This document shows positions 5,396 through 55,015 of a stretch of DNA of 64,000 nt, in pieces. The notes under the pieces were generated by a model. It had not been told where the DNA came from, did not search any database, and was given only the letters and a program-made list of their open reading frames with translations. Every line of letters starts with the position of its first letter. Position 1 is the first letter of the stretch. Position numbers and translations under genes: made by a program. Source of the DNA: an uncultured candidate division WWE3 bacterium (lineage in GTDB: Bacteria > Patescibacteriota > WWE3 > UBA101185 > UBA10185); the NCBI GenBank assembly GCA_965603395.1, contig CBFDCV010000001.1, positions 5,389 through 69,388 of the forward strand, written 5' to 3'.

Positions 5396-5407
5396 AACAA
5401 CAATCTT

Positions 5408-5482
5408 TGGAGGCGCAGGGGGGAATCGAACCCCCGCATCGAGGTTTTGCAGACCCCAGCGTTTCCACTTCGCCACTGCGCC
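5408..5482 (-). tRNA. tRNA-Cys (anticodon GCA), CCA end encoded
   Basis: 75-nt cloverleaf read on the minus strand: acceptor GGCGCAG/CTGCGCC, anticodon stem-loop GGGGT-CTGCAAA-ACCTC, T-arm GGGGG-TTCGATT-CCCCC, and discriminator U73, which is a tRNA-Cys identity element. Confidence 0.9.
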
Positions 5483-18732: not shown

Positions 18733-19779
18733 ATGCTTTCTGAACAAACTCTGATTATTTTGGTTTTTCTAGTGCTGGGCTCTGCCGGTATTATTATTTT
18801 TGCCTTTTCTTCCCAAATTAAAAAGCTTAAAGATGAAATGAAAAATGACGAAGACGACAAGGTTTTGATGGAATGGCTCAAAGACATGAAAGGTTCTGTA
18901 GATACTAGATTAAAAGACCAAAATCAAACTTTACAGGATCAACTTGGTAGTCAGCGCAAAGCCATGACCGATCAAACAAAGTTGATTTGGGAGAGGCTGG
19001 AAAATTCGACCAAGGTTATTCAGCAGGTACACAAGGAGTTGGGAGGTATTAGTGAGTTTGGTCGTGATATGAAGGACCTGAGCAATATTTTAAAATCTCC
19101 CAAGTTAAGAGGTGGTCTGGGTGAACAGTTTTTGTACGAAATTTTAGAAAATTCTCTGCCTAAAGAATTATTTAAAACTCAGTACAAATTTAAAGACGGC
19201 GCCGTATGTGATGCTGTGGTCATTACTGAAAAAGGCTTGATTACCATCGATTCAAAATTTCCCATGGAAAACTTCAAAGAAATGGTAACCCAAGAAACTC
19301 AGGAGGCCAGAGAAAAATACAAAAAACAATTTATTAGAGATGTGAAAACTAGGATTGATGAGATTTCTTCCAAATACATCTTGCCCGAGGAAGGTACAGC
19401 CGATTTTGCCGTCATGTATGTCCCGTCTGAGAATGTCTATTACGAGTTAGTGGTTAACACGCCGGAAATTGAAAGCTACTCCAGAGATAAAAGTATTTTC
19501 ATTACCTCACCAAACACCCTAAATTATCAGATGAGAGCTATTTTAGTGGCCTATCAACAAAGTGAACTACAAAAACACGCCGGTGATATTTTAAAATCTT
19601 TGAGTGGTATAAAAACAGAAGCCGTAAAGTTTGATGAAGAACTAGGTGTGTTAGGCGGACATATTGTTCGAACATATAAGGCTATGGATAGCGTCAAGAT
19701 CAAGTTCTCTAAATTGTTTGGAAAAATTGAGAGTACTCAAGCTTTAGGAACCCCCGAAGATACAAAAGAACTTAGTTAA
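18733..19779 (+). CDS. rmuC: DNA recombination protein RmuC
   Basis: N-terminal TM, a coiled-coil region, and a conserved core 'LRGGLGEQFLYEILENSLP...AVCDAVVITEKGLITIDSKFP' typical of RmuC. Confidence 0.7.
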   Translation: MLSEQTLIILVFLVLGSAGIIIFAFSSQIKKLKDEMKNDEDDKVLMEWLKDMKGSVDTRLKDQNQTLQDQLGSQRKAMTDQTKLIWERLENSTKVIQQVHKELGGISEFGRDMKDLSNILKSPKLRGGLGEQFLYEILENSLPKELFKTQYKFKDGAVCDAVVITEKGLITIDSKFPMENFKEMVTQETQEAREKYKKQFIRDVKTRIDEISSKYILPEEGTADFAVMYVPSENVYYELVVNTPEIESYSRDKSIFITSPNTLNYQMRAILVAYQQSELQKHAGDILKSLSGIKTEAVKFDEELGVLGGHIVRTYKAMDSVKIKFSKLFGKIESTQALGTPEDTKELS

Positions 19780-26721: not shown

Positions 26722-27477
26722 TTAAGGCTCGTTGTCCATGAGGTAAATATCAACGTAGCCGGTGCGCCAAGGGGCCGTACGGTGATCTTTGTAGGCAAGA
26801 TCAATTTTATTTCCTTTTATAGCGCCCCCTACATCCAAGGCCTGGCATTTCCCGTACCCCGGAACATAAAAATGCGTGTACATATCTATTACAGTAGGGT
26901 CTACTGCGCAAACTCCCTGTTGTACGGGCGCACCCAGGGCAGTAGTATTATTACAACCTTCGCAAGTGGAATCGTATTTAGTGGCCCACACCCTCATCTT
27001 ATACCAATATTTTATTTTTCCGTATTCAGGGGTACTTAGCTTTTTCCACACGATTTTTTTCCCTTTTGAAACAATTTGAGTTGTGGGCTCTTTTACTTCT
27101 GTGTTAAGTACTGTTTTGTCGATGATGTCATCGACCCAATACGTTACAAGAAAGGTTTTAGTTATCAACCCTTCCTCCCCCGGTCTTTGTATTTCCTCTT
27201 TACCATACTCCAACTCTTCATCGTCTTCATATACTATCTCGAAGGGAATTGTATCGTGTTCATCCACTTCCATTTGGTCAAAGGCAGTGGTCGTCACAAT
27301 CTCAGGTTTGTATGTGGTCCGGGTCTGGTAAACTTCGTCCCTTATAGTGTCTGCGCCCAATACCTGACCTTCGTCAACTAAAATGTTTTTGTATAAAAAT
27401 ACGGTCGTGTAAATTACCTGCAGTATGATTAATATTCTATATATCATGTTATTCCCAACTGAAATTCCTTCTATCAA
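26722..27477 (-). CDS. Secreted/anchored G5 + 3D-domain protein (YabE/YuiC-like, cell-wall binding/lytic)
   Basis: N-terminal TM, a G5-like middle segment, and a C-terminal 3D domain 'YVPGYGKCQALDVGGAIKGNKIDLAY'. Confidence 0.5.
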   Translation of the reverse strand: MIEGISVGNNMIYRILIILQVIYTTVFLYKNILVDEGQVLGADTIRDEVYQTRTTYKPEIVTTTAFDQMEVDEHDTIPFEIVYEDDEELEYGKEEIQRPGEEGLITKTFLVTYWVDDIIDKTVLNTEVKEPTTQIVSKGKKIVWKKLSTPEYGKIKYWYKMRVWATKYDSTCEGCNNTTALGAPVQQGVCAVDPTVIDMYTHFYVPGYGKCQALDVGGAIKGNKIDLAYKDHRTAPWRTGYVDIYLMDNEP

Positions 27478-29392
27478 GCTCTAGGTTATCAAGAAAATCG
27501 TCCACGTTTTGGTTGCTCTTATAGGGATCTGTATAGTAACCCACATTTTCTATTAATTCTTGTGGGATCTCTAGTAAAAACCGGCTGGGAAGATTGCTTT
27601 GGCGGGTACCAAAGTACATTCGATTATAGGCTCTGGTTAGATACACCTGTTTCTTTGCCCTAGTTAGAGCCACATAACAAAGTCTTCTTTCTTCCTCCAT
27701 CTCGTCTTTCTCCATGATAGAATTGGCGTGCGGAAATAAACCCTCTTCCATACCAACCACAAAAACCACGGGAAATTCCAAACCCTTGGAAGCGTGAACA
27801 GTCATCAACGTAACCGATTCATAAATATCAGGGTTTGCTTTGTTTGAGCTTTCTATCAGCGCTACGTTTTCCAGAAAATCTTCTAAGTTGACAAACTGCT
27901 GAGCCACGGACCTGAGCTCTTTTATGTTTTCTATCCTGAACTTTCCTTCATCCGAACCATCGTCCAACCATTTTATGTAGCCCGTATCTTCCAGCAACAT
28001 TTCCATAAGCTCTAAGGTTGATTTACTTTCTTTTTCTTGCAACCATTTGGTAACAGGTAGTCCTGACTTTTGTTCTATGCTACCAATGTCCCAATTAGTT
28101 TCCTTTAAAATCTCCACACTTTTTTGCCCGATTTTTCTTGGTGGCACATTAATGATCCTCTCCCACGATATGCTGTCCTTAGGATTGTGAATCACTCTCA
28201 AATACGCAATTACGTCTTTTATTTCTTTCCTTGAATAAAATCTTAGGCCGCCCACAATTTTGTAAGGTATGTTGTTTTTAATAAAGTGTTCTTCCAAGTT
28301 TCTTGATTGAGCGTTTGTTCTGTAAAGTACAGCTATTTCTTTGTAAGCCACGTCTTCTTGACGTTTTTGCAATACTTTTTCAGCTACAAACTGTGCCTCT
28401 TCAAATTCTGATAATCCGGTAAAGTTGGTAATTTTTTCTCCTCCCTCTTGGTCCGTCCAAAGATCTAAAGGTATGTATGTTGAGTTGTTTTTTATGACGT
28501 TTTTAGCTGCATCTAAAATGTTTTGTGTGGATCGGTAATTTCTTTCCAGGTTATAAACTTTCACATCAGAGTAGTCATTTTGGAAGTGTAGTATGTTTCT
28601 GTAATCAGCCCCTCTAAACCCATAAATAGCCTGTGACATATCTCCCACTACATATAGATTTTTATGTTTTTGGGCCAAAAGTTTTGTTAGAACGTATTGT
28701 GCACGATTAGTATCCTGGTATTCATCAACCAGTAAATATTTAAACTGGTCTTGAAATTTTTCCAACACTCGCGGTTCCTTTCTAAAAAGGTTTACAGTTT
28801 CGAACAATAAATCATCAAAGTCCAAAGCATTGTTTTCTCTTATACGTTTTTGGTACTCGCGGTAGATCTTGGCTACACTTCTTTGAAAGTACCCTTGTAC
28901 AAATGTTTCGTAAGTTTCTGCATCGATTAGCTCTGATTTTGCACTAGAAATCATAGCGTGCACGGCACGTGGTTTGATCTTTTTGATATCCATACCAAAA
29001 TCTTTAATTATTTGTTTGGTGAGAGAAATGGAGTCGTCCTGATCGTAAATTACATAAGAAATGGGAATTCCTAGATAAAAACCGTGTTTTCTTAGGATAC
29101 GGGCACAAATGGAGTGAAAAGTACCGCTCCAAGCCAGTTTTTGGTCTTTACCTAACAGTTTGTGCACACGTCCTTGTACTTCCTTGGCCGCTTTATTAGT
29201 AAAGGTTACACACAAAATTTCTTCTTGGCCTATGCCGTGTTCTGTTATTAAGTAAGCAACCCTGTGTGTCAAAACCCTAGTCTTACCGCTTCCCGGCCCC
29301 GCCACTACTAAAGCGGGCCCATCTAAATGCTTAACGGCCTCTATTTGCTGAGAATTTAAGTCTTTGAGAATCTTTGGGTTTTGTTCTGGCAC
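27449..29392 (-). CDS. pcrA: UvrD/PcrA-family ATP-dependent DNA helicase
   Basis: Walker A 'AGPGSGKTRVL', 'LVDEYQDTN', 'GDMSQAIYGFRGA', 'VTLMTVHASKGLEF'. 647 aa with no nuclease domain. Confidence 0.85.
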   Translation of the reverse strand: MPEQNPKILKDLNSQQIEAVKHLDGPALVVAGPGSGKTRVLTHRVAYLITEHGIGQEEILCVTFTNKAAKEVQGRVHKLLGKDQKLAWSGTFHSICARILRKHGFYLGIPISYVIYDQDDSISLTKQIIKDFGMDIKKIKPRAVHAMISSAKSELIDAETYETFVQGYFQRSVAKIYREYQKRIRENNALDFDDLLFETVNLFRKEPRVLEKFQDQFKYLLVDEYQDTNRAQYVLTKLLAQKHKNLYVVGDMSQAIYGFRGADYRNILHFQNDYSDVKVYNLERNYRSTQNILDAAKNVIKNNSTYIPLDLWTDQEGGEKITNFTGLSEFEEAQFVAEKVLQKRQEDVAYKEIAVLYRTNAQSRNLEEHFIKNNIPYKIVGGLRFYSRKEIKDVIAYLRVIHNPKDSISWERIINVPPRKIGQKSVEILKETNWDIGSIEQKSGLPVTKWLQEKESKSTLELMEMLLEDTGYIKWLDDGSDEGKFRIENIKELRSVAQQFVNLEDFLENVALIESSNKANPDIYESVTLMTVHASKGLEFPVVFVVGMEEGLFPHANSIMEKDEMEEERRLCYVALTRAKKQVYLTRAYNRMYFGTRQSNLPSRFLLEIPQELIENVGYYTDPYKSNQNVDDFLDNLELDRRNFSWE

Positions 29393-31213: not shown

Positions 31214-31483
31214 ATGGCTAAAAATCTTAAAGTATCTTTTCCTCAAAAATGCATAGGATGTGAAGTTTGCGTCTTTGAAGCTCAAAGGCAGTTAAAAAAA
31301 GTTGGTTTAGAAGGCTCGCTGATTAGAATTTTTCGAAACAAAAAAGAAGACAAGGAATTTTTGGAGTACTCCATAGACATAGAACCCCGTTTGAATAAAC
31401 TTGATATTGAAGCCATTAAAAATATGTGCCCAACGGAAGTGTTTGAAGTTGTGGAAGAAGAAAACGATGGACTTATCGAGTAA
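31214..31483 (+). CDS. Small 4Fe-4S ferredoxin-like protein
   Basis: 'CIGCEVCV' (CxxCxxC) plus a distal 'CP' in 89 aa. It overlaps the start of the next gene by 17 nt. Confidence 0.5.
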   Translation: MAKNLKVSFPQKCIGCEVCVFEAQRQLKKVGLEGSLIRIFRNKKEDKEFLEYSIDIEPRLNKLDIEAIKNMCPTEVFEVVEEENDGLIE

Positions 31484-32309
31484 AAAAATACTTTTCATCA
31501 ACCTGGGTGAAAAAACTTCGGAAGTTAAAACATTTCCTGATCTACATAAATACATTGGTGGCGTTGCGCTGGGCCTAAGACTATACGAACTGCATAAGGA
31601 TCAGGATCCCGTAATCTTTTCCGTTGGTCCCCTAAATGGTATGTTTCCATACGTCTCAAAAACTTCCGTTGTATTCAACCTGGAGGGCGTCATGGAAGAT
31701 ATTTATTTTGGTGGTTACTTATCCACTAGAATAAAGTTCGCCGATATTGACTCCATAGTAATCTACGGAAAATCCGCTGAGCCTGTGATATTAGATCTTC
31801 ACAACGATTCTGTTTCTTTCAAGTCCGCTGATACAGTTGCGGGATCCCTGGGTCTTCCCGGAAAAAGAAGTTTCTTATCATATCAAGAAAAAGCTATGGT
31901 TTTAGATGACTATTTTACAGTACCTGATAACTTATTGAATAAAAAATTTGATAAAAATGGTTTAGCCGGTTTAACTGTTACAGGAACATGTACTTTTACA
32001 CCGAAGGATCTGGACAAATATGAATCTCTCTACAAAGAATTGGTGGGTAAAACTTTAGATATTAGAGTTGAGAAAGGGTTTTTCCCGTCTTGCTCCGGCT
32101 GCCCTATGGGCTGTGCAAAGTCCAATGTGGGTGAAATTGGGGGAAATGTACTAGCACATAGCATGGTAGCATGTGAATTTGCCGAAGATATTTATACAGA
32201 TGTGGGAACAGTCTTTTCGTGCTTAAATATATTAGGGTATGATTATACGCACGAAGATATTGAAAATCTTCCCGTACTTGTTCAAAATACTCTAAAAAGC
32301 TTGAGCTAA
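31467..32309 (+). CDS. Aldehyde:ferredoxin oxidoreductase (AOR/GAPOR) family protein, truncated. It has the N-domain plus the CxxCxxxC Fe-S motif but lacks the tungstopterin-binding domains.
   Basis: Pattern matches the AOR N-domain: 'ILFINLGE...YIGGVALGLRLY...DPVIFSVGPLNGMFPYVSKTSVV...GGYLSTRIKFADIDSIVIYGKSAEPV'. It then has 'CSGCPMGC' (the AOR CxxCPxGC cluster ligands) and 'SCLNILGYDY'. Only about 281 aa, against about 600 for AORs. Confidence 0.5.
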   Translation: MDLSSKKILFINLGEKTSEVKTFPDLHKYIGGVALGLRLYELHKDQDPVIFSVGPLNGMFPYVSKTSVVFNLEGVMEDIYFGGYLSTRIKFADIDSIVIYGKSAEPVILDLHNDSVSFKSADTVAGSLGLPGKRSFLSYQEKAMVLDDYFTVPDNLLNKKFDKNGLAGLTVTGTCTFTPKDLDKYESLYKELVGKTLDIRVEKGFFPSCSGCPMGCAKSNVGEIGGNVLAHSMVACEFAEDIYTDVGTVFSCLNILGYDYTHEDIENLPVLVQNTLKSLS

Positions 32310-46321: not shown

Positions 46322-46723
46322 ATGAATAATCTGCCACCGGATCCCAATCAACCAATCTCTTCTCCTATTGATCCCGGTTCTTCGGGCTCTACTATTAAAG
46401 GTTCTGAAGGCGGTGTTTTTCCGGAAAGTGCTTCTGTGCCTGAAACGCCGTCATCTCCTGAAACTCAAACTTCCCCGGAGATCCAAAAATTACCGGAAAA
46501 ATTAACGGGACCCATACCGAAAACCGCACAAGCCGCCCCTCCTTTAGAAGTTCCAAAAAACGGCGCCGTTGAGCCTACTCAAATACCAAACATAGTGGAC
46601 AAAACAGACCAGCTAACCACCTTGCATGAGATCAAAGCGCCTAAAGACAAGCTAACCGAAGAGGCCGACGAAGAAGAGGAACATTTTATCGAGGAGGTTG
46701 AAAAGCACCATGGAGACCTTTGA
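46322..46723 (+). CDS. Pro/Ser/Glu-rich low-complexity protein
   Basis: 133 aa with no TM. It overlaps the start of the next gene by 26 nt. Coding status uncertain. Confidence 0.25.
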   Translation: MNNLPPDPNQPISSPIDPGSSGSTIKGSEGGVFPESASVPETPSSPETQTSPEIQKLPEKLTGPIPKTAQAAPPLEVPKNGAVEPTQIPNIVDKTDQLTTLHEIKAPKDKLTEEADEEEEHFIEEVEKHHGDL

Positions 46724-49142
46724 CGTGGTTTTCGATTCATTTTGGACTGTTCTCTATTTGATCATTCTCATTGGACTTCTTGCCGGCTTTTTCTTAATCA
46801 TTGCTGCGGCCAAAAGAAAAAGGTCTATTAAAACGCACGAGTTTGATCTCACTTTCTTACAAATTATGCTACCTAAAGATAATGAAACTGAGGTAGACGC
46901 AGCTGAACACCTTTTTTCAAACTTAGCAGGGCTTAAAAAATCTTTTTTTAAAAGGCTTTTCACTGGAGATTTCCGTCTATCCTTTGAAATCGTATCAAAA
47001 GTGGAGGGTATAGGTTTCTATGTAGTAGTGCCCGATGAGATAGCCGGCTTTGTGGAAAAACAGATAAATGGCGTTTACCCTGACGCAGAAATCGATGTAG
47101 TTAATCCCAATGAGGTATGGGATAGAGGTAATTTCACCAAAGTATCAGAGTTCAAATTCAAAGGATACCCATACTCACCATTAAAAACTCATGAAGATAT
47201 TAAAACTGACCCCCTCAACCTTATTACCTCGTCTATGAGCAAATTGGATAAGGATGAGGTACTGGCTGTGCAGTATATCATTACGCCGGCCGGCAGCTCT
47301 TGGCGCAAAGCAGGTCAAAAGTATGTGAACGCTATCAGGTCCAAAGTTCAAGATGCAGAAAAGAAATATCATGTGGATGAGAAATATTTGGAAAAAATCG
47401 AAAAAAAGATAGCTGCTCCAGGTTTTGATACTGCTATCAGAGTAGTATCCATATCAAAAAACGCGCAAACAGCCCAGGCACATATCAACAATGTTGTGTC
47501 TACTTTTGAGCAATTTGCAGATGTAAATCACAACAAATTAGTTTTGAGAAAGTCTTTATTAAGTGGTTTACTATCAAAAAAACTTGTCGACAATTTCATC
47601 TACCGGAAAATGAGCTTGCGAGAACTTACCATCCCTCTCTTGGATCTAACTTTTTATAAAAACATGCCTGTTTTAAATACTGAGGAGTTGGCTACCGTTT
47701 TTCACTTTCCTAATAAAGATGTGCAAACCCCAAAGATTATCCGACTCACTTCCAGAAAATCAGCGGCTCCTGCCAACCTACCTACTCAAAAAGATGGTAT
47801 TTGGATTGGTGAGAGTTCCTTCAGGGGTGTTAAGACTCCTGTTTACCTGAAAGAAGAAGATCGTACCCGTCACTTTTACATTTTGGGACAAACAGGTACC
47901 GGTAAATCCGAGCTCCTAAAGTACATGGCATTACAGGATATAAAAAATGGTGAGGGCGTTGCTCTCATAGACCCTCACGGTACTGACGTACAAGACCTTC
48001 TTACAAAAATACCACCGGAAAGGGTGGACGATACTATATACTTCAATGTTTCAGATACAGGGCGCCCCATGGGCTTAAATCTTTTGGAACACCACAATGA
48101 AGAAGAGCAACATATCATCATAAATTCTTTTATCGCTTTGTTATATAAACTGTACGATCCCAATAGGCAAGGCATTATGGGACCTCAGTTAGAGAGGGCT
48201 ATAAGAAACGTCATGCTCACCGCTATGGTAGACAAACACAGCACTATAGTAGATGTCTTAAGGCTATTAATAGATGCACCTTATTCTAAAAAGTTCGTGG
48301 CTAAAGTTACTGATCCCCTGGTTAAAAAGTACTGGACCGATGAAATGGCCAAAACTTCCGACTTCCATAAAAGTGAAAAGATGGGCTACTTTGTCTCAAA
48401 GTTCGATCGGTTTGTGACTGATAAATTAATGAGAAATATATTAGGGCAACCAAAGTCTTCCTTTAATTTAGCTGATGTCATGGCTCAAAAGAAAATACTG
48501 TTGGTGGATCTTGCCAAAGGTAAAATAGGTGAAGAAAATTCCAGCTTTTTGGGACTTATACTTGTCCCCAAAATCCTTGGAGCAGCATTAGCCAGACACC
48601 GCCTGCTAGAGCAGGGCCAACCCTTCCCTAACTTTTATTTATACGTAGATGAATTCCAAAATTTTGCCACTCCTGACTTTACCACTATTCTTTCCGAAGC
48701 TAGAAAATATAAATTGAACCTTACTGTGGCCCATCAGTTCATAGAACAACTTCCGGATGACATCAGGGAAGCTGTTTTTGGAAACGTAGGATCCCTTTGT
48801 ACCTTCAGAGTTGGCGCAAATGATGCCGAGTTTCTGGAACACTACTATGAGCCCGTTTTTACAAAACAAGACATAGGAAACCTGCCTATAGGAAACGCCT
48901 ACGTCAGGCTGTTGGTTGACGGCCACCCCACCCCTCCTTTCTCCATGAACGTGCCCTGGAAAACTATCGATACTGACGTACCCAAAAACCAAGAGGTAGC
49001 AAACAAGATCAAAGAACAATCAAGATTAAAATACGGTGTGCCGGTAAAAGAGGTTGAAGAATACATTAATCTTAGAGCCGGTTTCAATGAGTCTCCCCCA
49101 GAGATAAATAAGAAACCCGAGAAAAAGAAAATCCCTTTTTAA
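46698..49142 (+). CDS. VirB4/TraC/CagE-like (FtsK-HerA superfamily) transport ATPase with an N-terminal TM helix; VirD4-like coupling protein not excluded
   Basis: Walker A 'ILGQTGTGKSELL' at about residue 395 of 814, 'ALIDPHGTD', Walker B 'LYVDEFQNF', and 'ARKYKLNLTVAHQFIEQL' (the T4SS ATPase RK...Q..QL block). Confidence 0.5.
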   Translation: MKSTMETFDVVFDSFWTVLYLIILIGLLAGFFLIIAAAKRKRSIKTHEFDLTFLQIMLPKDNETEVDAAEHLFSNLAGLKKSFFKRLFTGDFRLSFEIVSKVEGIGFYVVVPDEIAGFVEKQINGVYPDAEIDVVNPNEVWDRGNFTKVSEFKFKGYPYSPLKTHEDIKTDPLNLITSSMSKLDKDEVLAVQYIITPAGSSWRKAGQKYVNAIRSKVQDAEKKYHVDEKYLEKIEKKIAAPGFDTAIRVVSISKNAQTAQAHINNVVSTFEQFADVNHNKLVLRKSLLSGLLSKKLVDNFIYRKMSLRELTIPLLDLTFYKNMPVLNTEELATVFHFPNKDVQTPKIIRLTSRKSAAPANLPTQKDGIWIGESSFRGVKTPVYLKEEDRTRHFYILGQTGTGKSELLKYMALQDIKNGEGVALIDPHGTDVQDLLTKIPPERVDDTIYFNVSDTGRPMGLNLLEHHNEEEQHIIINSFIALLYKLYDPNRQGIMGPQLERAIRNVMLTAMVDKHSTIVDVLRLLIDAPYSKKFVAKVTDPLVKKYWTDEMAKTSDFHKSEKMGYFVSKFDRFVTDKLMRNILGQPKSSFNLADVMAQKKILLVDLAKGKIGEENSSFLGLILVPKILGAALARHRLLEQGQPFPNFYLYVDEFQNFATPDFTTILSEARKYKLNLTVAHQFIEQLPDDIREAVFGNVGSLCTFRVGANDAEFLEHYYEPVFTKQDIGNLPIGNAYVRLLVDGHPTPPFSMNVPWKTIDTDVPKNQEVANKIKEQSRLKYGVPVKEVEEYINLRAGFNESPPEINKKPEKKKIPF

Positions 49143-49176
49143 CTGTAGTACAGGCCGCAAATTTAGTTATGTTTAA

Positions 49177-49184
49177 TGTATAAT
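49177..49184 (+). promoter_or_regulatory. Extended -10 element (TGTATAAT) 7 nt before the ATG of the FtsA-like gene. Implies a leaderless or very short-leader transcript.
   Basis: TGnTATAAT match. The ATG at 49192 has no room for an SD. Confidence 0.3.
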
Positions 49185-49191
49185 CGAGTTA

Positions 49192-50388
49192 ATGATCAAG
49201 CTGCCATTTTTTAAAAAAGCTACTAAAAAGACACCAAAATTTATCACTTTGGATATAGGTTCGAGCGGTATTAGGTGCTTAGCTTTCTATAAAGAGGATG
49301 GAAGCCTCAAAATTATAGGCAGAGGGAATGCCGCGCTTGATGCGGGTGCCGTTAGAAACGGCGTCATTATTGATTTTGGTCCGGTTGCCGCTGCGGCTCA
49401 AGAAGCCATTGATGTTGCCACTCAAAACGCAGAGGATGTCATCAAAAATACCATTATAGGCATTAGCAGCGATGTCTGCATAGAGAACGTAACTACAGCA
49501 AAAATAACCAGGGGTTCAACTAAGCCCATTACGCTTAAAGAGGTTGAAAACTTTAACCAGAAAATTGCTGATTCCGCCACCATACAAGTACAAGATTACT
49601 ACTCCCAATTCAAAGGTGACCCGGACACCGAACTACAAATGATCACATCATCCGTAGTTTATACCAAGCTTGATGATAACAAGGTTGACACATTAGAAAA
49701 ACAAGACGGGCAATCGGTCGAAATGGCACTATATACAGCTTTTTGTCCTGTACACCATATCGAAACCGTTCAAAAACTCGGTAAAAAGTTAAAAATTAAT
49801 ATACTAGCTATAAGCCCGGTCAACTTTGCCGTGCTAAAAACGTTGAAACAAACCGAACTGGAAAGCAGTGATCTAGTTTTGATACAGGTAGGATCCGATT
49901 TTACTAATGTGGGAGTTGTCTTTGGCGGAGCCATTATTAAAAATAAAAGCCTCCATATTGGTCATAAGCATTTTACCGATGAGATCAGCCGTATCATGGG
50001 GCTGACCCAAATCGAAGCTACAAAAGTATTGCAGACTCACTCACGCGGGGCACTAAGTCCAAGTGAAAGTGTGGTGGTACAAAGCTGTTTGGAAGATGTA
50101 TTAAACCTCTGGCTTGAGGGGGTAGAGCTTCTTTTTACTGATTTTGCAGGTGTAAAGACATTTGCCCCTCACGTGTTTCTCTTCGGTGAGGGCGTACAAC
50201 TACAGGAAATCGAAGAAATGCTAGCAAAAGAGCCCTGGATGAAAAATATTCCCTTTAAGTCTCCTCCCAAAATCCAGGTCTTATCATTGGTAGATATGAA
50301 AAAGGTTGCAGACGCTACCGGCTCGGTGATTTCACAAGAATGGGTTCCTCCAGCGGCACTATCTTATATTTATGAGGAAGTAGCATGA
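49192..50388 (+). CDS. Actin-fold ATPase, FtsA-like (PilM-like not excluded)
   Basis: 'LDIGSSGIRCLAF...DGSLKIIGRGN...GAVRNGVIIDFGPVAAAAQEAIDVA' and 'LIQVGSDFTNVGVVFGGAII...LHIGHKHFTDEIS' (FtsA 1A/2A phosphate motifs). Confidence 0.55.
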   Translation: MIKLPFFKKATKKTPKFITLDIGSSGIRCLAFYKEDGSLKIIGRGNAALDAGAVRNGVIIDFGPVAAAAQEAIDVATQNAEDVIKNTIIGISSDVCIENVTTAKITRGSTKPITLKEVENFNQKIADSATIQVQDYYSQFKGDPDTELQMITSSVVYTKLDDNKVDTLEKQDGQSVEMALYTAFCPVHHIETVQKLGKKLKINILAISPVNFAVLKTLKQTELESSDLVLIQVGSDFTNVGVVFGGAIIKNKSLHIGHKHFTDEISRIMGLTQIEATKVLQTHSRGALSPSESVVVQSCLEDVLNLWLEGVELLFTDFAGVKTFAPHVFLFGEGVQLQEIEEMLAKEPWMKNIPFKSPPKIQVLSLVDMKKVADATGSVISQEWVPPAALSYIYEEVA

Positions 50389-51923
50389 CAAAACTAGAAG
50401 TGGAACTACATGAGGACGTTGTAAGCGTTCTACATAAACTAAAGGACATAAACGACACAGGTATTGAGCTTATCGTACCTGAAGGAGCGGTGCTTTTTGA
50501 CAACGTACTAAATCTCAAGCTTTTACAAAAATGGTCCGATAAAGAGGAGAAGGTTATCAACTTCCAAACCGATGATCTCAACGGCCAGAGCATGCTTATG
50601 TCGTTGGAAGATGAGGGAGTTCCGTCAGAAGAAATAATGGAAGAGGACATTAGTGCTATTGAACAAGAGGTTCCCACTCAAAAGTTTTCCATGCCTAAAG
50701 TTAAGTTAGCGCTCCCCGTTATCAAACTTAAAAAGGGTAGGGTCTTTTTTGTTTTGTTTTTGGTGTTAGCTTTTTTGGGTCTGTCCGGATTTTTTGGTTA
50801 TAAAAAAGTGGCTCAGATGCCAAAAGCCCAAGTTAAAATCATCGTTAATTCCCAACCTCTCACCCGAAGTTTTGAAATTAAAGTAAAACATAATAATGAT
50901 ACGGATGCGGAAAATAAAATTCTCAGAGGTACTACAGTAGAATCCAGCTTGGAAGACGAAGTGATCATAGAAACAACCGGAGAAAAGATAGTCGGAGAAA
51001 AAGCTGAAGGAGAAATAACCATTTTCAATAAAACAGATGAAGAAAAAAAGTTTAAAGAAGATACTGAGGTCATTTACGAAGATGATGACGATGACGAATA
51101 TGTTTACGAGCTCAAAGAAGATGTTACTGTTCCTCCCAGAGAGGAAGCATCCGACTCAACGCCCGCCGAACCCAAATACATTAGCGGAAACGCCGACGTA
51201 GAGGTTGAAGCCCAAGAAATTGGGAAAGACTACAACTTAGATGAGGGAGAAAATCTTAAAATCGAAGATCAAGATGATTCCGATTATGAAGCTGAGGTTA
51301 ATGAGGACATCGATGGTGGTAAGGAGGAAACCATCATGGTTGTGGCTCAAGAAGACATTGACGATGCTACACAAAGACTTCTTGAAAATTCCCGGGAAAA
51401 AGCCCTAAGAGCGTTGGGTGAAAAGATTAGCGGAGAACAAAAGCTAGTGGGCGGTTCTGAAAATGTAGCAATAGTAAAAGAAACATTTAGCCATGAGTTG
51501 GAAGATGAAACCGAGGAGTTAGCTCTTTCTCAAACTTTTTCTGCCAAAGGTCTTGTTTACAACCCGGATGATCTGGACAAACTTATTGAACTTCTCATGG
51601 AAGAATTCGTACCTGAAGGATTTGTTTTGTCCACCAAAGAAAGGATTGTTAATGTTGAGGTTCTAGGAAATACAGAAACCACCTTACTCTCATCCTCCGA
51701 GGCCGACCTGCAAGTTACGCTCAAAACATACGTGATAACTGATATTTCCGAAGAAACTATTAAGCAGGCTCTTATGGGAAAAAGCCCGGGAGACGCTGAA
51801 AAATATCTTGGGAGCATTAGAAACGTAAAAACGTACGAGCTGAACATAAACCCTCGCATACCGTTGTTTGATTACATTCCAAAAGACGAGTCGCGTATAG
51901 TTATCAATCTGGAAAGAGAATAG
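50385..51923 (+). CDS. Bitopic membrane protein: ~110-aa cytoplasmic N-domain, one TM, large highly acidic extracytoplasmic domain
   Basis: TM at about 'VFFVLFLVLAFLGLSGFFGY', D/E-rich runs including 'YEDDDDDEY', and a 4-nt overlap with the FtsA-like gene. No recognisable domain. Confidence 0.4.
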   Translation: MTKLEVELHEDVVSVLHKLKDINDTGIELIVPEGAVLFDNVLNLKLLQKWSDKEEKVINFQTDDLNGQSMLMSLEDEGVPSEEIMEEDISAIEQEVPTQKFSMPKVKLALPVIKLKKGRVFFVLFLVLAFLGLSGFFGYKKVAQMPKAQVKIIVNSQPLTRSFEIKVKHNNDTDAENKILRGTTVESSLEDEVIIETTGEKIVGEKAEGEITIFNKTDEEKKFKEDTEVIYEDDDDDEYVYELKEDVTVPPREEASDSTPAEPKYISGNADVEVEAQEIGKDYNLDEGENLKIEDQDDSDYEAEVNEDIDGGKEETIMVVAQEDIDDATQRLLENSREKALRALGEKISGEQKLVGGSENVAIVKETFSHELEDETEELALSQTFSAKGLVYNPDDLDKLIELLMEEFVPEGFVLSTKERIVNVEVLGNTETTLLSSSEADLQVTLKTYVITDISEETIKQALMGKSPGDAEKYLGSIRNVKTYELNINPRIPLFDYIPKDESRIVINLERE

Positions 51924-51925
51924 AC

Positions 51926-52357
51926 ATGGCAAAGAAAAAGGGTAAAGATCCTCTAGATGAAAAGTTGTTAGGTATAGACTACGGCTCTACAAATATAGGT
52001 CTGGCTTTTGGTATTAATGATCTAGTTTCCCCACTTAAAGTGATTTCCGGTAGGAATCAGCAACAAGCTCTTTCGGAAATTGCCAGGTATATTATCGAAA
52101 ATAAAGTAGACAGAGTTGTGTTAGGGCTTCCCCTTAACCCTGAAGGTAAGGAGTCCGCACAATCTAAAGAGGTCAGAAAGTTCGGTAAACTTTTAAGAAT
52201 TAAAACTAAAAAGCCGGTTAAATATGTCAACGAGTACCGCACTACCGAAGAAAGCATAACCGAAGCAGTTAATTTAGGTATTTCTAAAAAAAGACGGCAA
52301 AAGATTGACCATCTATCAGCCGCACTAATAATCAAGGAGTATTACTCAAAGCTTTAA
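51926..52357 (+). CDS. ruvX: Putative pre-16S rRNA nuclease / Holliday-junction resolvase-like YqgF (RuvX)
   Basis: 'LLGIDYGSTNIGLAFG' RNase H-like N-terminus, 143 aa. Confidence 0.75.
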   Translation: MAKKKGKDPLDEKLLGIDYGSTNIGLAFGINDLVSPLKVISGRNQQQALSEIARYIIENKVDRVVLGLPLNPEGKESAQSKEVRKFGKLLRIKTKKPVKYVNEYRTTEESITEAVNLGISKKRRQKIDHLSAALIIKEYYSKL

Positions 52358-52361
52358 CTTT

Positions 52362-52592
52362 TTATTTCTTTTTCTTCTCTTTTTTTATCCTCATTTCCAC
52401 TTCTTTTGACTCACAAATGGAACACTCAAAGTTTTGTCCCGGTTTCAGACAGGAAGGGCATATATAAATACCGTCCATAAAGATAAGCTTCTCCTGTTTA
52501 CAGGTGTTGCATAAAAATAAAACGTCATCACGTTTGATGTCACCATCGTTGGGACAATTAAATTTTATGTTTTCCTCTTTTATATCTTTCAT
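52362..52592 (-). CDS. Small double zinc-ribbon protein
   Basis: Four CxxC pairs (CPND, CNTC, CPSC, CSIC) and a Lys-rich tail in 76 aa. Confidence 0.4.
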   Translation of the reverse strand: MKDIKEENIKFNCPNDGDIKRDDVLFLCNTCKQEKLIFMDGIYICPSCLKPGQNFECSICESKEVEMRIKKEKKKK

Positions 52593-53534: not shown

Positions 53535-53552
53535 ACACCATTGCTTTATCAT

Positions 53553-53561
53553 TGTGGATAA
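53553..53561 (-). promoter_or_regulatory. Perfect DnaA box (TTATCCACA) upstream of dnaA
   Basis: Plus strand TGTGGATAA is the reverse complement of the consensus DnaA box. Confidence 0.5.
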
Positions 53562-53623
53562 CTTATGTTAAATTACTTCTGCCTCGTACTAAACCTGTCT
53601 TATTTCTGCCTTCATTTTTTAGC

Positions 53624-55015
53624 ATGAATAAAAGAAAAAAAGCTGTCAAATCACAAGAGGATACTAATCAGTTTTGGAAGAAGGTTCTAGGAATTCTACA
53701 AACTGAGTTAAACCCATCCATTTTTAATACATGGGTAACGGGCGTCACGCCTGAAAACCTCACCGACACCTCAATAGAACTAGTGGTTCCTATGGATTAC
53801 AGTGCAAAACAGCTACAAAAATATACTTCTCTTATTCAAGATTCCATAGAACGGGTGGGAGGAGGGCCGTACAAAATACAATTTGTAGTAAAAAAAACAA
53901 CTGAAAAAATTGAGGTTGATGACCTAGGACCTTTGTTCGAACCGAAAAAGGAAACTAAAATTAGTAAGGCGGTTATCACCAAGGCAGGACTCAATCCCAA
54001 ATTCACATTCGAAAATTTCATCATGGGAAACAGTAATCAACTGGCGTACGCCATAGCTCAATCTGTGGCAGAGAACCCGGGAAAAAGCTATAATCCCTTC
54101 TTTTTGTATTCCGGTGTGGGTATGGGAAAAACTCACCTCATGCAAGCTATAGGAAATAGAATATTACAAAATGATCCGAAAACAACTGCGGTATATACAA
54201 CCGGCGAGAGTTTCATGAACGAGCTCATTGAATCTATACAAAGTGGCAAGGGAAGAGGACGTTACACATCAAACGAATTTAGAAATAAGTTTAGAAAAAC
54301 AGATGTTTTATTGATCGATGATATCCAAGAAATTGTGGGAAAAGAAGCCACACAAGCTGAGTTCTTTCATACTTTTAATAGCCTATACATGGCCGGTAAA
54401 CAGATTGTTCTTACGTCCGATAGACCCCCCAAAGATTTTACTAATTTAGAAAAACGCATAACGTCAAGATTTGGGAGCGGCATCATCGCTGATATACAAC
54501 ACCCTGAAACAGATTTGAGAGTGGCCATACTAAGAACCAAAAGAGACCAAAATGATGACGATATCTCTAACGAAGTGGTAGACTACATCGCTGAAAAAGT
54601 AACTTCTAATATTAGGGAACTTGAAGGAGCTTATTTACAGGTGCTGACTACCGCCAAGGCAAAGGGCAAGAACCCCACACCTGAGTTAGCAGAAGGAGTA
54701 TTGGGAAAAACCGTTACTCTAAAAAGAAAGAAATCTCTAACCTTAAGTCAGATACTAAGCACTGTTTGCAAATACTACTCACTAAAAACTACTGATCTTA
54801 AAGGAAAAAGAAGAACCAAGAACATTGTTATTCCCAGACAGGTAGCCATGTATTTGATGAGGGAGCTTACCGAAGAGCCTCTTATGAATATTGGAAAGTT
54901 TTTGGGTGGTAGAGACCACACCACCATCATGCATGGCATCGATAAGATCCGAGCCGAGATTAAGGACATGGGTAGGATCAGACAGGATGTTAACAATGTT
55001 AAAGAGATGCTTTAG
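53624..55015 (+). CDS. dnaA: Chromosomal replication initiator DnaA
   Basis: AAA+ 'FLYSGVGMGKTHLMQAIGN', 'LLIDDIQ', and domain IV 'IPRQVAMYLMRELT...IGKFLGGRDHTTIMHGIDKI'. Start taken at 'MNKRKK'. Confidence 0.92.
   Translation: MNKRKKAVKSQEDTNQFWKKVLGILQTELNPSIFNTWVTGVTPENLTDTSIELVVPMDYSAKQLQKYTSLIQDSIERVGGGPYKIQFVVKKTTEKIEVDDLGPLFEPKKETKISKAVITKAGLNPKFTFENFIMGNSNQLAYAIAQSVAENPGKSYNPFFLYSGVGMGKTHLMQAIGNRILQNDPKTTAVYTTGESFMNELIESIQSGKGRGRYTSNEFRNKFRKTDVLLIDDIQEIVGKEATQAEFFHTFNSLYMAGKQIVLTSDRPPKDFTNLEKRITSRFGSGIIADIQHPETDLRVAILRTKRDQNDDDISNEVVDYIAEKVTSNIRELEGAYLQVLTTAKAKGKNPTPELAEGVLGKTVTLKRKKSLTLSQILSTVCKYYSLKTTDLKGKRRTKNIVIPRQVAMYLMRELTEEPLMNIGKFLGGRDHTTIMHGIDKIRAEIKDMGRIRQDVNNVKEML

What the first reader, a model, noticed from the sequence alone, without database searches (positions are those of the whole stretch)
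46322..51923. Unassigned cluster: VirB4-like ATPase, FtsA-like actin-fold ATPase and a large acidic bitopic membrane protein
Four consecutive + strand genes sit between the dnaK region and ruvX. (1) A Pro/Ser/Glu-rich 133-aa protein overlaps the next start. (2) An 814-aa protein has one N-terminal TM and a C-terminal FtsK-HerA-type ATPase, with Walker A at about residue 395, 'VDEFQNF' and 'ARKYKLNLTVAHQ..QL', as in VirB4/TraC (or VirD4) T4SS ATPases. (3) After an extended -10 comes a 398-aa actin-fold ATPase with FtsA-like phosphate motifs, but no ftsZ follows. (4) Translationally coupled (ATGA overlap) is a 512-aa bitopic protein with a ~110-aa cytoplasmic N-domain and a strongly acidic ~370-aa external domain, and no recognisable fold. 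No other T4SS parts (VirB6/8/9-like, relaxase) are visible. An FtsA/PilM-type ATPase paired with an acidic bitopic protein and a VirB4-like motor does not match a described divisome, T4P or T4SS layout. It may be a lineage-specific envelope-spanning machine for DNA uptake, conjugation-like transfer or host attachment.
Basis: partly seen in the sequence, partly recalled or inferred. Interest (0 to 1): 0.6.

Follow-up and report, generated by a model that had tools for sequence, protein, structure and literature searches.

The report
Patescibacterial actin-like protein with baseplate-like partner
The four genes are real but form two separate units: an orphan conjugation-type ATPase with a small partner, and a pair conserved across Patescibacteria (Candidate Phyla Radiation, CPR), in which a third FtsA/PilM-like actin-fold protein sits next to a membrane protein with a phage-baseplate-like outer domain, of unknown function but needed for growth in the one species tested.

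Summary
All four ORFs exist as described, in a housekeeping, origin-proximal region (hrcA-grpE-dnaK ... ruvX-HAD-dnaA) of a WWE3-type Patescibacteria genome.

**Unit 1 (A-B).** A disordered acidic protein with a conserved C-terminal motif overlaps the start of an 814-aa membrane-anchored ATPase of the VirB4/VirD4/HerA branch. Sequence profiles hit only coupling proteins (TrwB, DotL, TraD). The architecture, an N-domain followed by a P-loop domain, looks VirB4-like. Orphan ATPases of this kind are already reported as widespread in Patescibacteria.

**Unit 2 (C-D-ruvX).**
- It has its own conserved TATAAT box 7 nt before the ATG, so the mRNA is probably leaderless.
- C is equidistant from FtsA and PilM.
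- D is not foldless. It has a STAS-like cytoplasmic domain, one TM helix and a baseplate-J/GlxA-type ectodomain.
- In other lineages a reduced C-like domain is fused to D in place of the STAS-like domain, which argues that C and D form one complex.
- The pair normally sits in alaS-[C-D]-ruvX-mltG.
- An identically annotated pair at the same position in Southlakia epibionticum is Patescibacteria-enriched. There the D counterpart is class II essential, and canonical FtsA-FtsZ and PilM-PilN lie elsewhere.

The single "VirB4 + FtsA + bitopic machine" reading is only partly supported. The most likely role is an envelope scaffold.

The parts
46322..46723 (+). A: 133-aa disordered Pro/Glu/Ser/Thr-rich acidic protein with a conserved C-terminal motif DKLTEEADEEEEHFIEEVEKHHG. 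Translationally coupled to B.
   Evidence: ORF. No Pfam or NCBIfam hit. pI 4.45. In nearly all of 35 distinct loci an upstream ORF of 75-273 aa carries the D(K)LT..AD.EE..FI.EVE..H motif. It ends about 25 nt inside B in 24 of them.
46698..49142 (+). B: 814-aa membrane-anchored ATPase of the VirB4/VirD4/HerA branch. It has an N-terminal TM helix (residues ~14-37), an alpha/beta N-domain (~50-330, Pfam DUF8128 in precomputed annotations) and a P-loop domain (~366-790) with a helical insertion (468-582).
47886..47909 (+). Walker A motif GQTGTGKS of B (residues 397-404)
   Evidence: Motif scan. Invariant in alignment A3.
49177..49184 (+). TGTATAAT: a -10 promoter box 7 nt upstream of the C start codon. 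This suggests a separate, probably leaderless, C-D-ruvX transcript.
   Evidence: Sequence. A perfect TATAAT lies 5-9 nt (31 times exactly 7 nt) before the C start in 34 of 46 distinct related loci.
49192..50388 (+). C: 398-aa actin-fold (ASKHA) protein of the FtsA/PilM superfamily. It belongs to a distinct paralogous family and has no C-terminal membrane-targeting helix.
   Evidence: NCBIfam ftsA 52 bits (cut-off 176) and pilM 46.5 bits (cut-off 133). Family profile against PDB: PilM 1.6e-15, FtsA 2.8e-15. Nucleotide-binding motifs are partly conserved. 50 homologues, all Patescibacteria.
50385..51923 (+). D: 512-aa bitopic (N-in) protein. Domains: STAS/SpoIIAA-like cytoplasmic domain (residues 1-78), disordered linker (79-111), TM helix (~120-143), then an acidic ectodomain with a baseplate-J/GlxA-type beta-barrel region (147-320), a long helix (322-347) and two alpha/beta domains (360-512).
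51926..52357 (+). ruvX (YqgF), the invariant downstream partner. It starts 3 nt after the D stop.
   Evidence: Pfam RuvX 1.4e-28. C-D-ruvX are contiguous in every locus whose contig covers all three genes.

Best explanation
The region holds two independent units.

**Unit 1 (A-B).** B is an orphan, membrane-anchored hexameric-type ATPase of the VirB4/VirD4 branch. A is a small acidic disordered protein whose conserved C-terminal helix probably docks on B (inferred). This family is highly conserved and chromosomal in Patescibacteria. It has most likely been exapted from conjugation for another translocation task, with unknown substrate.

**Unit 2 (C-D-ruvX).** This is an operon with its own -10 box and a probably leaderless mRNA. 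C is a third paralogue of the FtsA/PilM actin-fold family. D is its bitopic membrane partner.

- Shown: the two genes are always adjacent and translationally coupled.
- Shown: in other lineages a reduced C-like domain (1A+2A core only) is covalently fused to D's TM helix and ectodomain, in place of D's STAS-like domain.
- Inferred: C is held at the membrane by D's cytoplasmic STAS-like domain, as PilM is by PilN, MreB by RodZ, or as in the GspL fusion. C's nucleotide-dependent state or oligomerisation is then coupled across the membrane to an oligomerising, phage-baseplate-derived acidic ectodomain in the wall zone.
- Inferred: because the pair is embedded in alaS-[C-D]-(sortase)-ruvX-mltG next to ftsK and a rodZ-like gene, and never next to pilus or secretion genes, its most likely job is scaffolding of cell-envelope growth, division or budding. 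DNA transfer is less likely.

The identically annotated pair at the same position in S. epibionticum matters for fitness there.
For: **Separate units.**
- The TATAAT box 7 nt before the C ATG is conserved in 34/46 loci.
- B is separated from C by alaS or inserts in several WWE3 loci, while C-D-ruvX is invariant.
- No B-like gene lies within 10 kb in L003, L058-L062.
- B is about 60% identical across the family, against 35-40% for C and D.

**C-D complex.**
- The ATGA overlap.
- Fusion proteins P0387, P0397 and P0405-P0409 match D only from residue ~80-123 onward.
- Their N-terminal ~260 aa align to the whole of C (hhalign probability 97.8%, E 6.8e-13) minus the regions that correspond by position to subdomains 1C and 2B.
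- D's N-domain is its most conserved part, with a mean major-residue frequency of 0.61.

**C is a third paralogue.**
- It is equidistant from PilM and FtsA and below both NCBIfam cut-offs.
- S. epibionticum tables list SEML1_0657 alaS, 0656 'PilM', 0655 'baseplate J/gp47 family', 0654 RuvX and 0653 MltG in order. FtsA-FtsZ are at 0174-0175 and PilM-PilN at 0104-0105 (PMC10633639).

**Fitness.**
- SEML1_0655 is called NE/ES/ES (class II essential), with insertions falling 25, 7, 2.
- SEML1_0656 is called NE/NE/GD.
- Both are core and Patescibacteria-enriched families.

**D fold.**. The ECOD assignment of SEML1_0655 agrees (SpoIIaa-like plus beta-barrel plus baseplate).

**Envelope context.** ftsK, an HTH_25 RodZ-like gene, sortase and YceG/MltG are neighbours.

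**B.**. PMC12102498 reports 5,713 VirD4-type homologues in 2,918 Patescibacteria genomes, only 148 of them near virB4, and raises possible exaptation.

**A-B pair.** Conserved motif and overlap.
Against: - No direct evidence that C binds D's N-domain.
- The envelope-scaffold role rests only on gene neighbourhood. alaS-ruvX-mltG is an ancient gene order whose members are not all functionally linked.
- Homology of SEML1_0655/0656 to D/C was inferred from annotation, synteny, length and ECOD domains, not from their sequences.
- Tn insertions in SEML1_0655 could be partly polar on the essential ruvX. However, insertions in the upstream 0656 are tolerated.
- C's phosphate-1 glycine and phosphate-2 aspartate are only partly conserved, so ATPase activity is uncertain.
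- B is next to C in most WWE3 genomes, so a functional link in this class cannot be excluded.
- I could not scan a whole WWE3 genome, so canonical ftsA-ftsZ in WWE3 itself remains unverified.
Confidence: 0.55

Rival explanations
1. One envelope-spanning translocation machine. The A-B motor, the C platform ATPase and the D ectodomain would work together in DNA uptake, conjugation-like transfer or effector delivery to a host.
For: - B lies directly upstream of C (about 130-190 bp) in most WWE3 loci, across D identities down to about 35%.
- B is T4SS-type.
- Patescibacterial T4SS genes tend to lie near dnaA (PMC12102498), and this cluster is 1.6 kb from dnaA.
- D's ectodomain is related to injection-machine baseplates.
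Against: - C has its own conserved promoter.
- alaS or 1.5-3.7 kb inserts lie between B and C in L001, L008, L017, L021, L025, L029, L031, L036 and L037.
- No B-like gene is near C-D in the other lineages.
- In S. epibionticum the two T4CP-like genes (0142, 0293) are far from 0655/0656 and have different fitness classes.
- The whole 15-kb region is syntenic in WWE3, so adjacency carries little information.
- The window has no VirB3/6/8, pilin, relaxase or ComEC genes.
Confidence: 0.12
2. C is a pilus-platform PilM and D is a divergent PilN/PilO-type partner of a type IV pilus or competence pilus encoded elsewhere.
For: - The family profile hits PilM structures as strongly as FtsA.
- Pfam PilM_2 is precomputed on many homologues.
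- The Table S1 annotation (headed PROKKA) of the S. epibionticum counterpart is 'pilus assembly protein PilM'.
- WWE3 genomes encode T4P (PMC3812714).
Against: - The score is below the TIGR01175 cut-off (46.5 against 133).
- No pilB/C/T/D, pilN/O or pilin genes lie near C-D in any of more than 60 loci.
- S. epibionticum has a bona fide PilM-PilN in its T4P1 locus, called GD or ES at T0 and ES thereafter. By contrast 0656 is only GD at T2 and 0655 is class II.
Confidence: 0.12
3. C is the cell's divisome FtsA, and D is a functional substitute for FtsQ/DivIB/FtsN and for FtsA's missing membrane anchor.
For: - The best NCBIfam hit is ftsA (4e-14).
- JGI and NCBI label homologues as FtsA or FtsA-domain proteins.
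- ftsK and ftsEX-pcsB are in the wider neighbourhood in L001.
- C lacks its own membrane-targeting helix.
Against: - The score is 52 bits against a cut-off of 176.
- No ftsZ lies within 10 kb in the window (motif scan) or in L001-L057 (tblastn); the neighbourhoods of L058-L062 list none either.
- S. epibionticum has canonical FtsA-FtsZ elsewhere in addition to the C-D counterpart, and insertions in the C counterpart are tolerated whereas FtsA is essential.
- D shows no POTRA or FtsQ similarity.
- Fused variants lose the regions aligned to subdomains 1C and 2B. In FtsA these are the subdomains that contact late divisome proteins and FtsZ (general knowledge, not tested here).
Confidence: 0.1
4. 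D is a remnant of a prophage or contractile injection system baseplate, and the cluster is a degraded mobile element.
For: Baseplate_J/gp47 similarity.
Against: - No other phage or contractile-injection-system genes in the window.
- Strictly conserved housekeeping synteny across deep divergence.
- Bitopic membrane topology.
- 10,075 cluster representatives.
- The S. epibionticum counterpart is a core family and is essential there.
Confidence: 0.02

Closest known systems
PilM-PilN (type IV pilus alignment subcomplex) and its fused form GspL/EpsL of type II secretion
   Same: A cytoplasmic FtsA-like actin-fold protein is paired with, or fused to, a bitopic membrane protein. The family exists in split and fused versions. 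The fused version keeps only a reduced actin-like core without conserved nucleotide motifs.
   Different: - D has no PilN N-terminal peptide motif. It carries a STAS-like domain instead.
- The ectodomain is baseplate-J/GlxA-like, not the PilN/PilO/GspL ferredoxin-like fold.
- It never neighbours pilus or secretion genes.
- The S. epibionticum annotation lists a separate genuine PilM-PilN in the same genome.
FtsA (TIGR01174), the divisome membrane tether of FtsZ
   Same: - Actin fold, with one contiguous alignment to S. aureus FtsA over residues 11-285.
- The spacing between the phosphate-1 and phosphate-2 motifs is about 210 residues, typical of FtsA/PilM proteins with a 1C insertion.
   Different: - The score is far below the family cut-off.
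- No adjacent ftsZ and no C-terminal amphipathic helix.
- The counterpart pair in S. epibionticum coexists with a canonical FtsA.
MreB-RodZ
   Same: An actin-like cytoskeletal protein would be anchored by the small folded cytoplasmic N-domain of a bitopic protein that also has an external domain. The setting is a cell-wall gene context.
   Different: C is FtsA/PilM-type, not MreB-type. D's N-domain is STAS-like, not a helix-turn-helix. A RodZ-like HTH_25 gene exists separately in related loci.
Baseplate J / gp47 / T4 gp6 wedge proteins and the GlxA beta-barrel domain (PF04865, PF21110)
   Different: D is a membrane-anchored extracytoplasmic protein of a cellular housekeeping operon. There are no other baseplate, sheath or tube partners.
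VirD4/TraD/TrwB type IV coupling proteins and VirB4/TrwK
   Same: - TraG-D_C scores just above its Pfam cut-off.
- The family profile hits only DotL and TrwB in the PDB.
- The full-length Foldseek alignment is to TrwK.
   Different: - One TM helix instead of two.
- A roughly 280-aa N-domain (DUF8128) that is absent from T4CPs.
- No relaxase or VirB3/6/8 nearby.
- About 60% identity across a whole class, which is chromosomal housekeeping-like conservation.
- A conserved small acidic partner (A).

Membership tests
FtsA (NCBIfam TIGR01174 equivalog) | Whole-protein score at or above the curated cut-off | tested here: not met
   52.4 bits against a cut-off of 175.85
FtsA | Gene adjacent to ftsZ or within a dcw cluster | tested here: not met
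   No FtsZ motif anywhere in the window.
FtsA | C-terminal amphipathic membrane-targeting helix | tested here: not met
   The protein ends with the conserved core segment W.PPA.LSYIYEE., with no extension beyond it. This was sequence inspection only.
FtsA/PilM superfamily | Actin (ASKHA) fold with a 1C-type insertion and nucleotide-binding motifs | tested here: inconclusive
   - Family profile hits PilM 1.6e-15 and FtsA 2.8e-15.
- Phosphate-1 to phosphate-2 spacing is about 210 aa.
- T238 and G332 are invariant, but G23 (19/44) and position 232 (D in 17/44) are variable.
- No structure was predicted for C.
PilM (TIGR01175 / PF11104) | Score at or above cut-off, and a neighbouring pilN/pilO/pilB/pilC | tested here: not met
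   46.5 bits against 133, and Pfam 21.6 against 27. No pilus genes in any neighbourhood.
PilN / PilO / FtsQ-DivIB (for D) | Short conserved N-peptide plus a ferredoxin-like periplasmic domain (PilN/O), or POTRA plus beta domain (FtsQ) | tested here: not met
   [not shown]
Baseplate_J (PF04865) / GlxA barrel (PF21110) | Domain score at or above cut-off, and fold match | tested here: inconclusive
   [not shown]
Contractile-injection or phage baseplate system | Co-encoded gp25/W-like, gpI-like, tube, sheath and spike proteins | tested here: not met
   None found in the window or in related loci.
STAS / SpoIIAA-like (D residues 1-78) | Beta-alpha fold of anti-sigma antagonists | tested here: met
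   [not shown]
VirD4-type coupling protein (T4CP) | P-loop NTPase domain with all-alpha insertion, and a TraG-D_C / TrwB_AAD_bind signature | tested here: met
   [not shown]
VirD4-type coupling protein (T4CP) | Two N-terminal TM helices, no large N-domain, and association with a relaxase or T4SS | tested here: not met
   One TM helix plus a roughly 280-aa N-domain. No T4SS or relaxase in the window.
VirB4 / TraC | VirB4-specific sequence families (CagE_TrbE_VirB, AAA_10) and neighbouring VirB3/6/8 | tested here: not met
   AAA_10 scores 12.6 against 27.5, and the VirB4_plasma NCBIfam model gives 15.7 against 590. There are no partner genes. The fold and two-domain architecture do resemble VirB4.
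FtsK / SpoIIIE | Multi-TM N-domain plus alpha/beta motor plus gamma (KOPS) domain | tested here: not met
   [not shown]

The most novel reading that the evidence does not exclude
C-D would be the core of a so far undescribed, Patescibacteria-wide, fitness-critical transmembrane apparatus. A third FtsA/PilM paralogue on the cytoplasmic face would control a ring or lattice of phage-baseplate-derived ectodomains in the cell wall. Such a structure could organise polar budding or division, or the host-contact zone of these epibionts. In WWE3 it might be functionally coupled to the neighbouring exapted T4CP-like motor (A-B).
Probability: 0.25. Interest if true: 0.8.

Novelty: new variant of a known kind. 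Interest (0 to 1): 0.6.

Why it matters
Patescibacteria make up a large share of bacterial diversity, and most of their lineage-specific essential genes have no assigned function.

This analysis does three things:
- It links two "Patescibacteria-enriched" families into one module, an actin-like protein and a "baseplate J" membrane protein. The links are gene fusion, translational coupling and invariant synteny.
- It gives the module a domain-level anatomy and a testable docking hypothesis.
- It separates the module from the divisome, from pili and from the neighbouring orphan coupling-protein-like ATPase.

The counterpart pair in S. epibionticum sits in a genetically tractable organism and already has a fitness phenotype, so the hypothesis can be tested directly.

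The work also shows a phage baseplate wedge fold reused as a cellular extracytoplasmic domain. In addition it points to leaderless expression from a conserved -10 box.

Tried and rejected
- **afdb50 fold search of D.** The library was not available.
- **Literature searches.** Searches for DUF8128, for baseplate/FtsA/PilM in Patescibacteria, for alaS/ruvX/mltG, and for WWE3 FtsZ/FtsA found nothing specific. The Kantor 2013 WWE3 genome paper mentions T4P but not division genes.
- **Canonical ftsA-ftsZ in a WWE3 genome.** I could not locate it. FtsZ was only shown to be absent within 10 kb of the cluster.
- **The 799-aa gene at the end of L058.** I tested whether it is a B homologue. It is not.
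- **Sequence search of the fusion N-domain (A4) against the PDB.** No significant hit. Only the profile-profile comparison with C worked.
- **First regex and frame filters for the A motif.** They were too strict or wrong and were corrected.
- **Rejected readings.** FtsK identity for B, FtsQ/PilN identity for D, and a prophage remnant.
- **Not resolved.** Whether B's N-domain is homologous to the VirB4 N-domain, because the models could not be split by domain. Also which S. epibionticum ATPase is B's orthologue: 0142 (essential, preceded by a small essential ORF) or 0293 (non-essential, with T4CP Pfam hits).

Full report
**1. Observation**

- A, 46322-46723 (133 aa)
- B, 46698-49142 (814 aa, TTG start)
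- C, 49192-50388 (398 aa)
- D, 50385-51923 (512 aa)

A overlaps the start of B by 26 nt. C and D overlap by ATGA. ruvX (Pfam RuvX 1.4e-28) starts 3 nt after D.

Upstream lie hrcA, grpE, dnaK, a DUF948 protein and a YtxH protein. Downstream lie ruvX, a HAD hydrolase, dnaA (53552-55015), murT and gatD.

The motifs quoted for B are present. Walker A GQTGTGKS is at residues 397-404.

B has one N-terminal hydrophobic helix followed by AKRKRSIK. This places the rest of the protein in the cytoplasm. D has one TM helix (about 120-143) preceded by K/R residues, which gives an N-in topology. Its ectodomain has pI 4.2 and net charge -52.

Pfam scans of the other ORFs of at least 110 aa in the window show an ordinary, cell-wall-rich housekeeping chromosome:
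- MurJ, two FemAB genes, LCP, sortase, MurT/GatD and two Wzy_C genes
- tRNA synthetases and GroEL

There is no T4SS, pilus, relaxase or phage gene. No FtsZ signature occurs in any frame. Homologues place the organism in candidate division WWE3 (Patescibacteria/CPR).

**2. The ATPase (B) and its small partner (A)**

Sequence evidence for B:
- B hits Pfam DUF87/HerA (4.7e-9) and TraG-D_C (4.4e-5, just above cut-off).
- It hits NCBIfam TraD/VirD4/CedD models, all far below their cut-offs.
- More than 2000 homologues exist. The best 120 are still about 58-91% identical. They carry PF26449 (DUF8128), PF01935 and PF12696, often also PF10412.
- This level of conservation is typical of housekeeping genes, not of mobile elements.
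- A family profile hits only the coupling proteins DotL and TrwB among PDB sequences.

Structural evidence for B, from the AF2 model (pLDDT 84):
- The model has a TM helix, an alpha/beta N-domain (about 50-330) and a P-loop domain with a helical insertion.
- Foldseek ranks full-length TrwK/VirB4 first (E 4e-16, about 900 alignment columns, TM 0.31).

B is therefore a separate branch of the VirB4/VirD4/HerA group. It is coupling-protein-like in sequence and VirB4/HerA-like in having a large N-domain. It is not FtsK.

A is a real gene. Nearly every one of 35 distinct related loci has an upstream ORF of 75-273 aa with a variable disordered body. It carries a conserved C-terminal motif D(K)LT..AD.EE..FI.EVE..HG. 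The ORF ends about 25 nt inside B in 24 of them.

Quinonero-Coronel et al. (PMC12102498) already reported 5,713 VirD4-type homologues in 2,918 Patescibacteria genomes. Only 148 were near virB4. They suggested exaptation.

**3. The actin-fold protein (C)**

- C scores 52 bits on NCBIfam ftsA (cut-off 176) and 46.5 bits on pilM (cut-off 133).
- Its 50 detectable homologues are all Patescibacteria.
- A family profile hits PilM (1.6e-15) and FtsA (2.8e-15) structures equally.
- The alignment to FtsA is contiguous over residues 11-285.
- The phosphate-1 to phosphate-2 spacing of about 210 residues is that of FtsA/PilM with a 1C insertion.
- Nucleotide-binding motifs are only partly conserved: D/E21 in 39/44 sequences, G23 in 19/44, T238 and G332 invariant.
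- There is no C-terminal amphipathic helix.

**4. The bitopic protein (D)**

D has full-length homologues throughout WWE3. In a profile search of 1.84 billion cluster representatives it has:
- 10,075 hits at E<=1e-3
- 2,688 hits at E<=1e-30

The AF2 model is confident (pLDDT 89). Its parts are:
- an alpha/beta N-domain (1-78)
- a disordered linker (79-111)
- a TM helix
- a beta-rich region (147-320)
- a long helix (322-347)
- two alpha/beta domains (360-512)

Across 85 family members, 24 hit the Pfam GlxA barrel and 13 hit Baseplate_J. The 'no recognisable fold' statement is therefore wrong.

**5. Neighbourhoods**

Across the related loci, C-D-ruvX is contiguous wherever the contig covers all three genes. 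These loci are the 54 WWE3 genome loci, including the closed genome CP006914.1, plus L001-L003 (tblastn map).

The order hrcA-grpE-dnaK-(DUF948)-(YtxH)-A-B-C-D-ruvX-HAD-dnaA-murT-gatD is broadly conserved.

B is directly upstream of C in most loci. In L001, L008, L017, L021, L025, L029, L031, L036 and L037 it is separated from C by alaS or by 1.5-3.7 kb. It is not seen next to C in L003, L040, L041, L045, L052 and L053, where alaS is the neighbour.

A more distant unfused member (L062) shows AlaRS, a PilM_2/FtsA-like protein (395 aa), a D-like protein (547 aa) and RuvX in order.

No ftsZ lies within 10 kb of any locus L001-L057.

**6. Fusions**

Six of the best profile hits (P0387, P0397, P0405, P0406, P0408, P0409; 696-793 aa) match D only from about residue 80-123 onward.

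- Their N-terminal ~260 residues are homologous to C over its whole length (hhalign probability 97.8%, E 6.8e-13).
- They lack the segments of C around residues 100-180 and 260-310. By position these correspond to subdomains 1C and 2B.
- The phosphate-1 motif is not conserved in them.
- They have no STAS-like domain.
- Their loci read RNase J-FtsK-[HTH_25 RodZ-like]-small ORF-(YtxH)-AlaRS-[fusion]-sortase-RuvX-66 aa-YceG/MltG-rpoB-rpoC. No B-like gene is present.

This is a Rosetta-stone argument that C and D act as one complex. It also suggests that D's STAS-like domain is the docking site that a covalent link replaces. The logic is the same as PilM+PilN versus GspL.

**7. Own promoter**

A perfect TATAAT, usually TGTATAATC, lies 5-9 nt (31 times exactly 7 nt) upstream of the C start codon. 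This holds in 34 of 46 distinct loci, including the window (49177-49184).

This indicates a separate and probably leaderless C-D-ruvX transcript. The generic promoter scan did not list it because there is no -35 match.

**8. Experimental anchor from the literature**

The source is Tables S1 and S2 of Wang et al. 2023 (PMC10633639). Southlakia epibionticum ML1 encodes the following genes in this order:
- SEML1_0657, alaS
- SEML1_0655, 'baseplate J/gp47 family protein' (ECOD: SpoIIaa-like N-domain, beta-barrel, baseplate)
- SEML1_0654, RuvX
- SEML1_0653, MltG

Both 0655 and 0656 are flagged as core and Patescibacteria-enriched families.

Tn-seq results:
- 0655 is NE/ES/ES (class II essential), with insertions falling 25, 7, 2.
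- 0656 is NE/NE/GD, with normalised reads falling 2427, 660, 221.

The same genome has canonical FtsA-FtsZ (0174-0175, essential) and a T4P PilM-PilN (0104-0105, essential). It also has two orphan T4CP-like ATPases far away:
- 0142, essential, preceded by a small essential ORF
- 0293, non-essential

I infer that 0656/0655 are homologous to C/D from synteny, annotation, size and domain assignment. I did not have their sequences. The main text of that paper does not discuss these genes.

**9. Interpretation**

The region is best read as two units.

- A-B is a member of the already noted class of orphan chromosomal T4CP-like ATPases. It adds a previously unremarked small acidic partner and a large N-domain.
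- C-D(-ruvX) is a Patescibacteria-specific module. It is a third FtsA/PilM paralogue plus a bitopic partner.
- That partner combines a STAS-like cytoplasmic domain with a baseplate-J-like acidic ectodomain.

I commit to the following model. The first step rests on the fusion evidence and the rest is inference:
- C docks on D's N-domain.
- The resulting transmembrane scaffold couples C's nucleotide state or oligomerisation to an oligomeric ectodomain in the wall zone.
- It acts in envelope growth, division or budding. This fits its fixed place in alaS-[C-D]-(sortase)-ruvX-mltG next to ftsK and a rodZ-like gene, and its fitness requirement.

The rivals are less likely for the reasons listed under rival explanations. 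They are one machine with B, a pilus platform, the divisome FtsA, and a phage remnant.

**10. Novelty and score**

The individual families are known as uncharacterised Patescibacteria-enriched families. The orphan T4CP-like ATPases have been described. I found no description of the following in the searchable literature:
- the C-D partnership
- its split and fused forms
- its domain anatomy
- its separation from the FtsA, PilM and T4CP systems
- the conserved leaderless-type promoter

I rate this a new variant of a known kind: an actin-like protein with a bitopic partner. Interest is 0.6. The mechanism is still inferential, but the system is widespread, is fitness-critical in the one species tested, and can be tested directly in a tractable organism.

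Noticed in passing
window 49177-49184 (and the same position in 34 of 46 related loci): A perfect TATAAT, usually TGTATAATC, sits 7 nt upstream of the C start codon with no Shine-Dalgarno sequence between them. This suggests a conserved promoter that produces a leaderless C-D-ruvX mRNA.
   Followed up: yes
window 46322-46723; upstream of B in L002-L057: Protein A is a conserved gene with a variable disordered body (75-273 aa). Its C-terminal motif is D(K)LT..AD.EE..FI.EVE..HG, and its overlap with B is nearly constant at about 25 nt. It resembles the small essential ORF SEML1_0141 that precedes the essential T4CP-like SEML1_0142 in S. epibionticum.
   Followed up: partly
window 53552-55015 and composition profile: dnaA lies 1.6 kb downstream of ruvX, and cumulative GC skew reaches its minimum around 38-42 kb. 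The cluster is therefore origin-proximal, as reported for T4SS genes in many Patescibacteria.
   Followed up: no
window 3548-5476 (-) and 5408-5482 (-): The longest alaS ORF (GTG start) overlaps tRNA-Cys, so the true alaS start must be further downstream. alaS is 41 kb from C-D in this genome, although it is the immediate upstream neighbour of C-D (or of the fusion) in other lineages.
   Followed up: partly
L001 6854-8731: A 625-aa hypothetical protein with no Pfam hit is inserted between B and C in one WWE3-type lineage (also L002 and L035).
   Followed up: no
L059 6978-7616, L060 6723-7370, L061 7034-7663: A RodZ-like gene (HTH_25 plus a Glucodextran_B-like domain) lies directly after ftsK and upstream of alaS-[fusion] in the fusion-bearing lineages. 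A sortase gene is always inserted between the fusion gene and ruvX.
   Followed up: no
window 31401-32309: A 302-aa ORF matches only the N-terminal domain of aldehyde:ferredoxin oxidoreductase (AFOR_N, 4e-22). It sits between gap (GAPDH) and tpi in a glycolytic gene row.
   Followed up: no
window 52362-52592 (-): A 76-aa protein rich in CxxC pairs (zinc-ribbon-like) lies on the opposite strand just after ruvX. A similar 85-aa gene with a faint Zn_Ribbon_TF hit occupies the same position in L002.
   Followed up: no
window 20399-23260 and 27449-29392: There are two UvrD-family helicases. One (953 aa) is fused to a C-terminal PD-(D/E)XK/Cas4-like nuclease, as in AddA/AddB. A RmuC gene lies at 18733-19779.
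   Followed up: no
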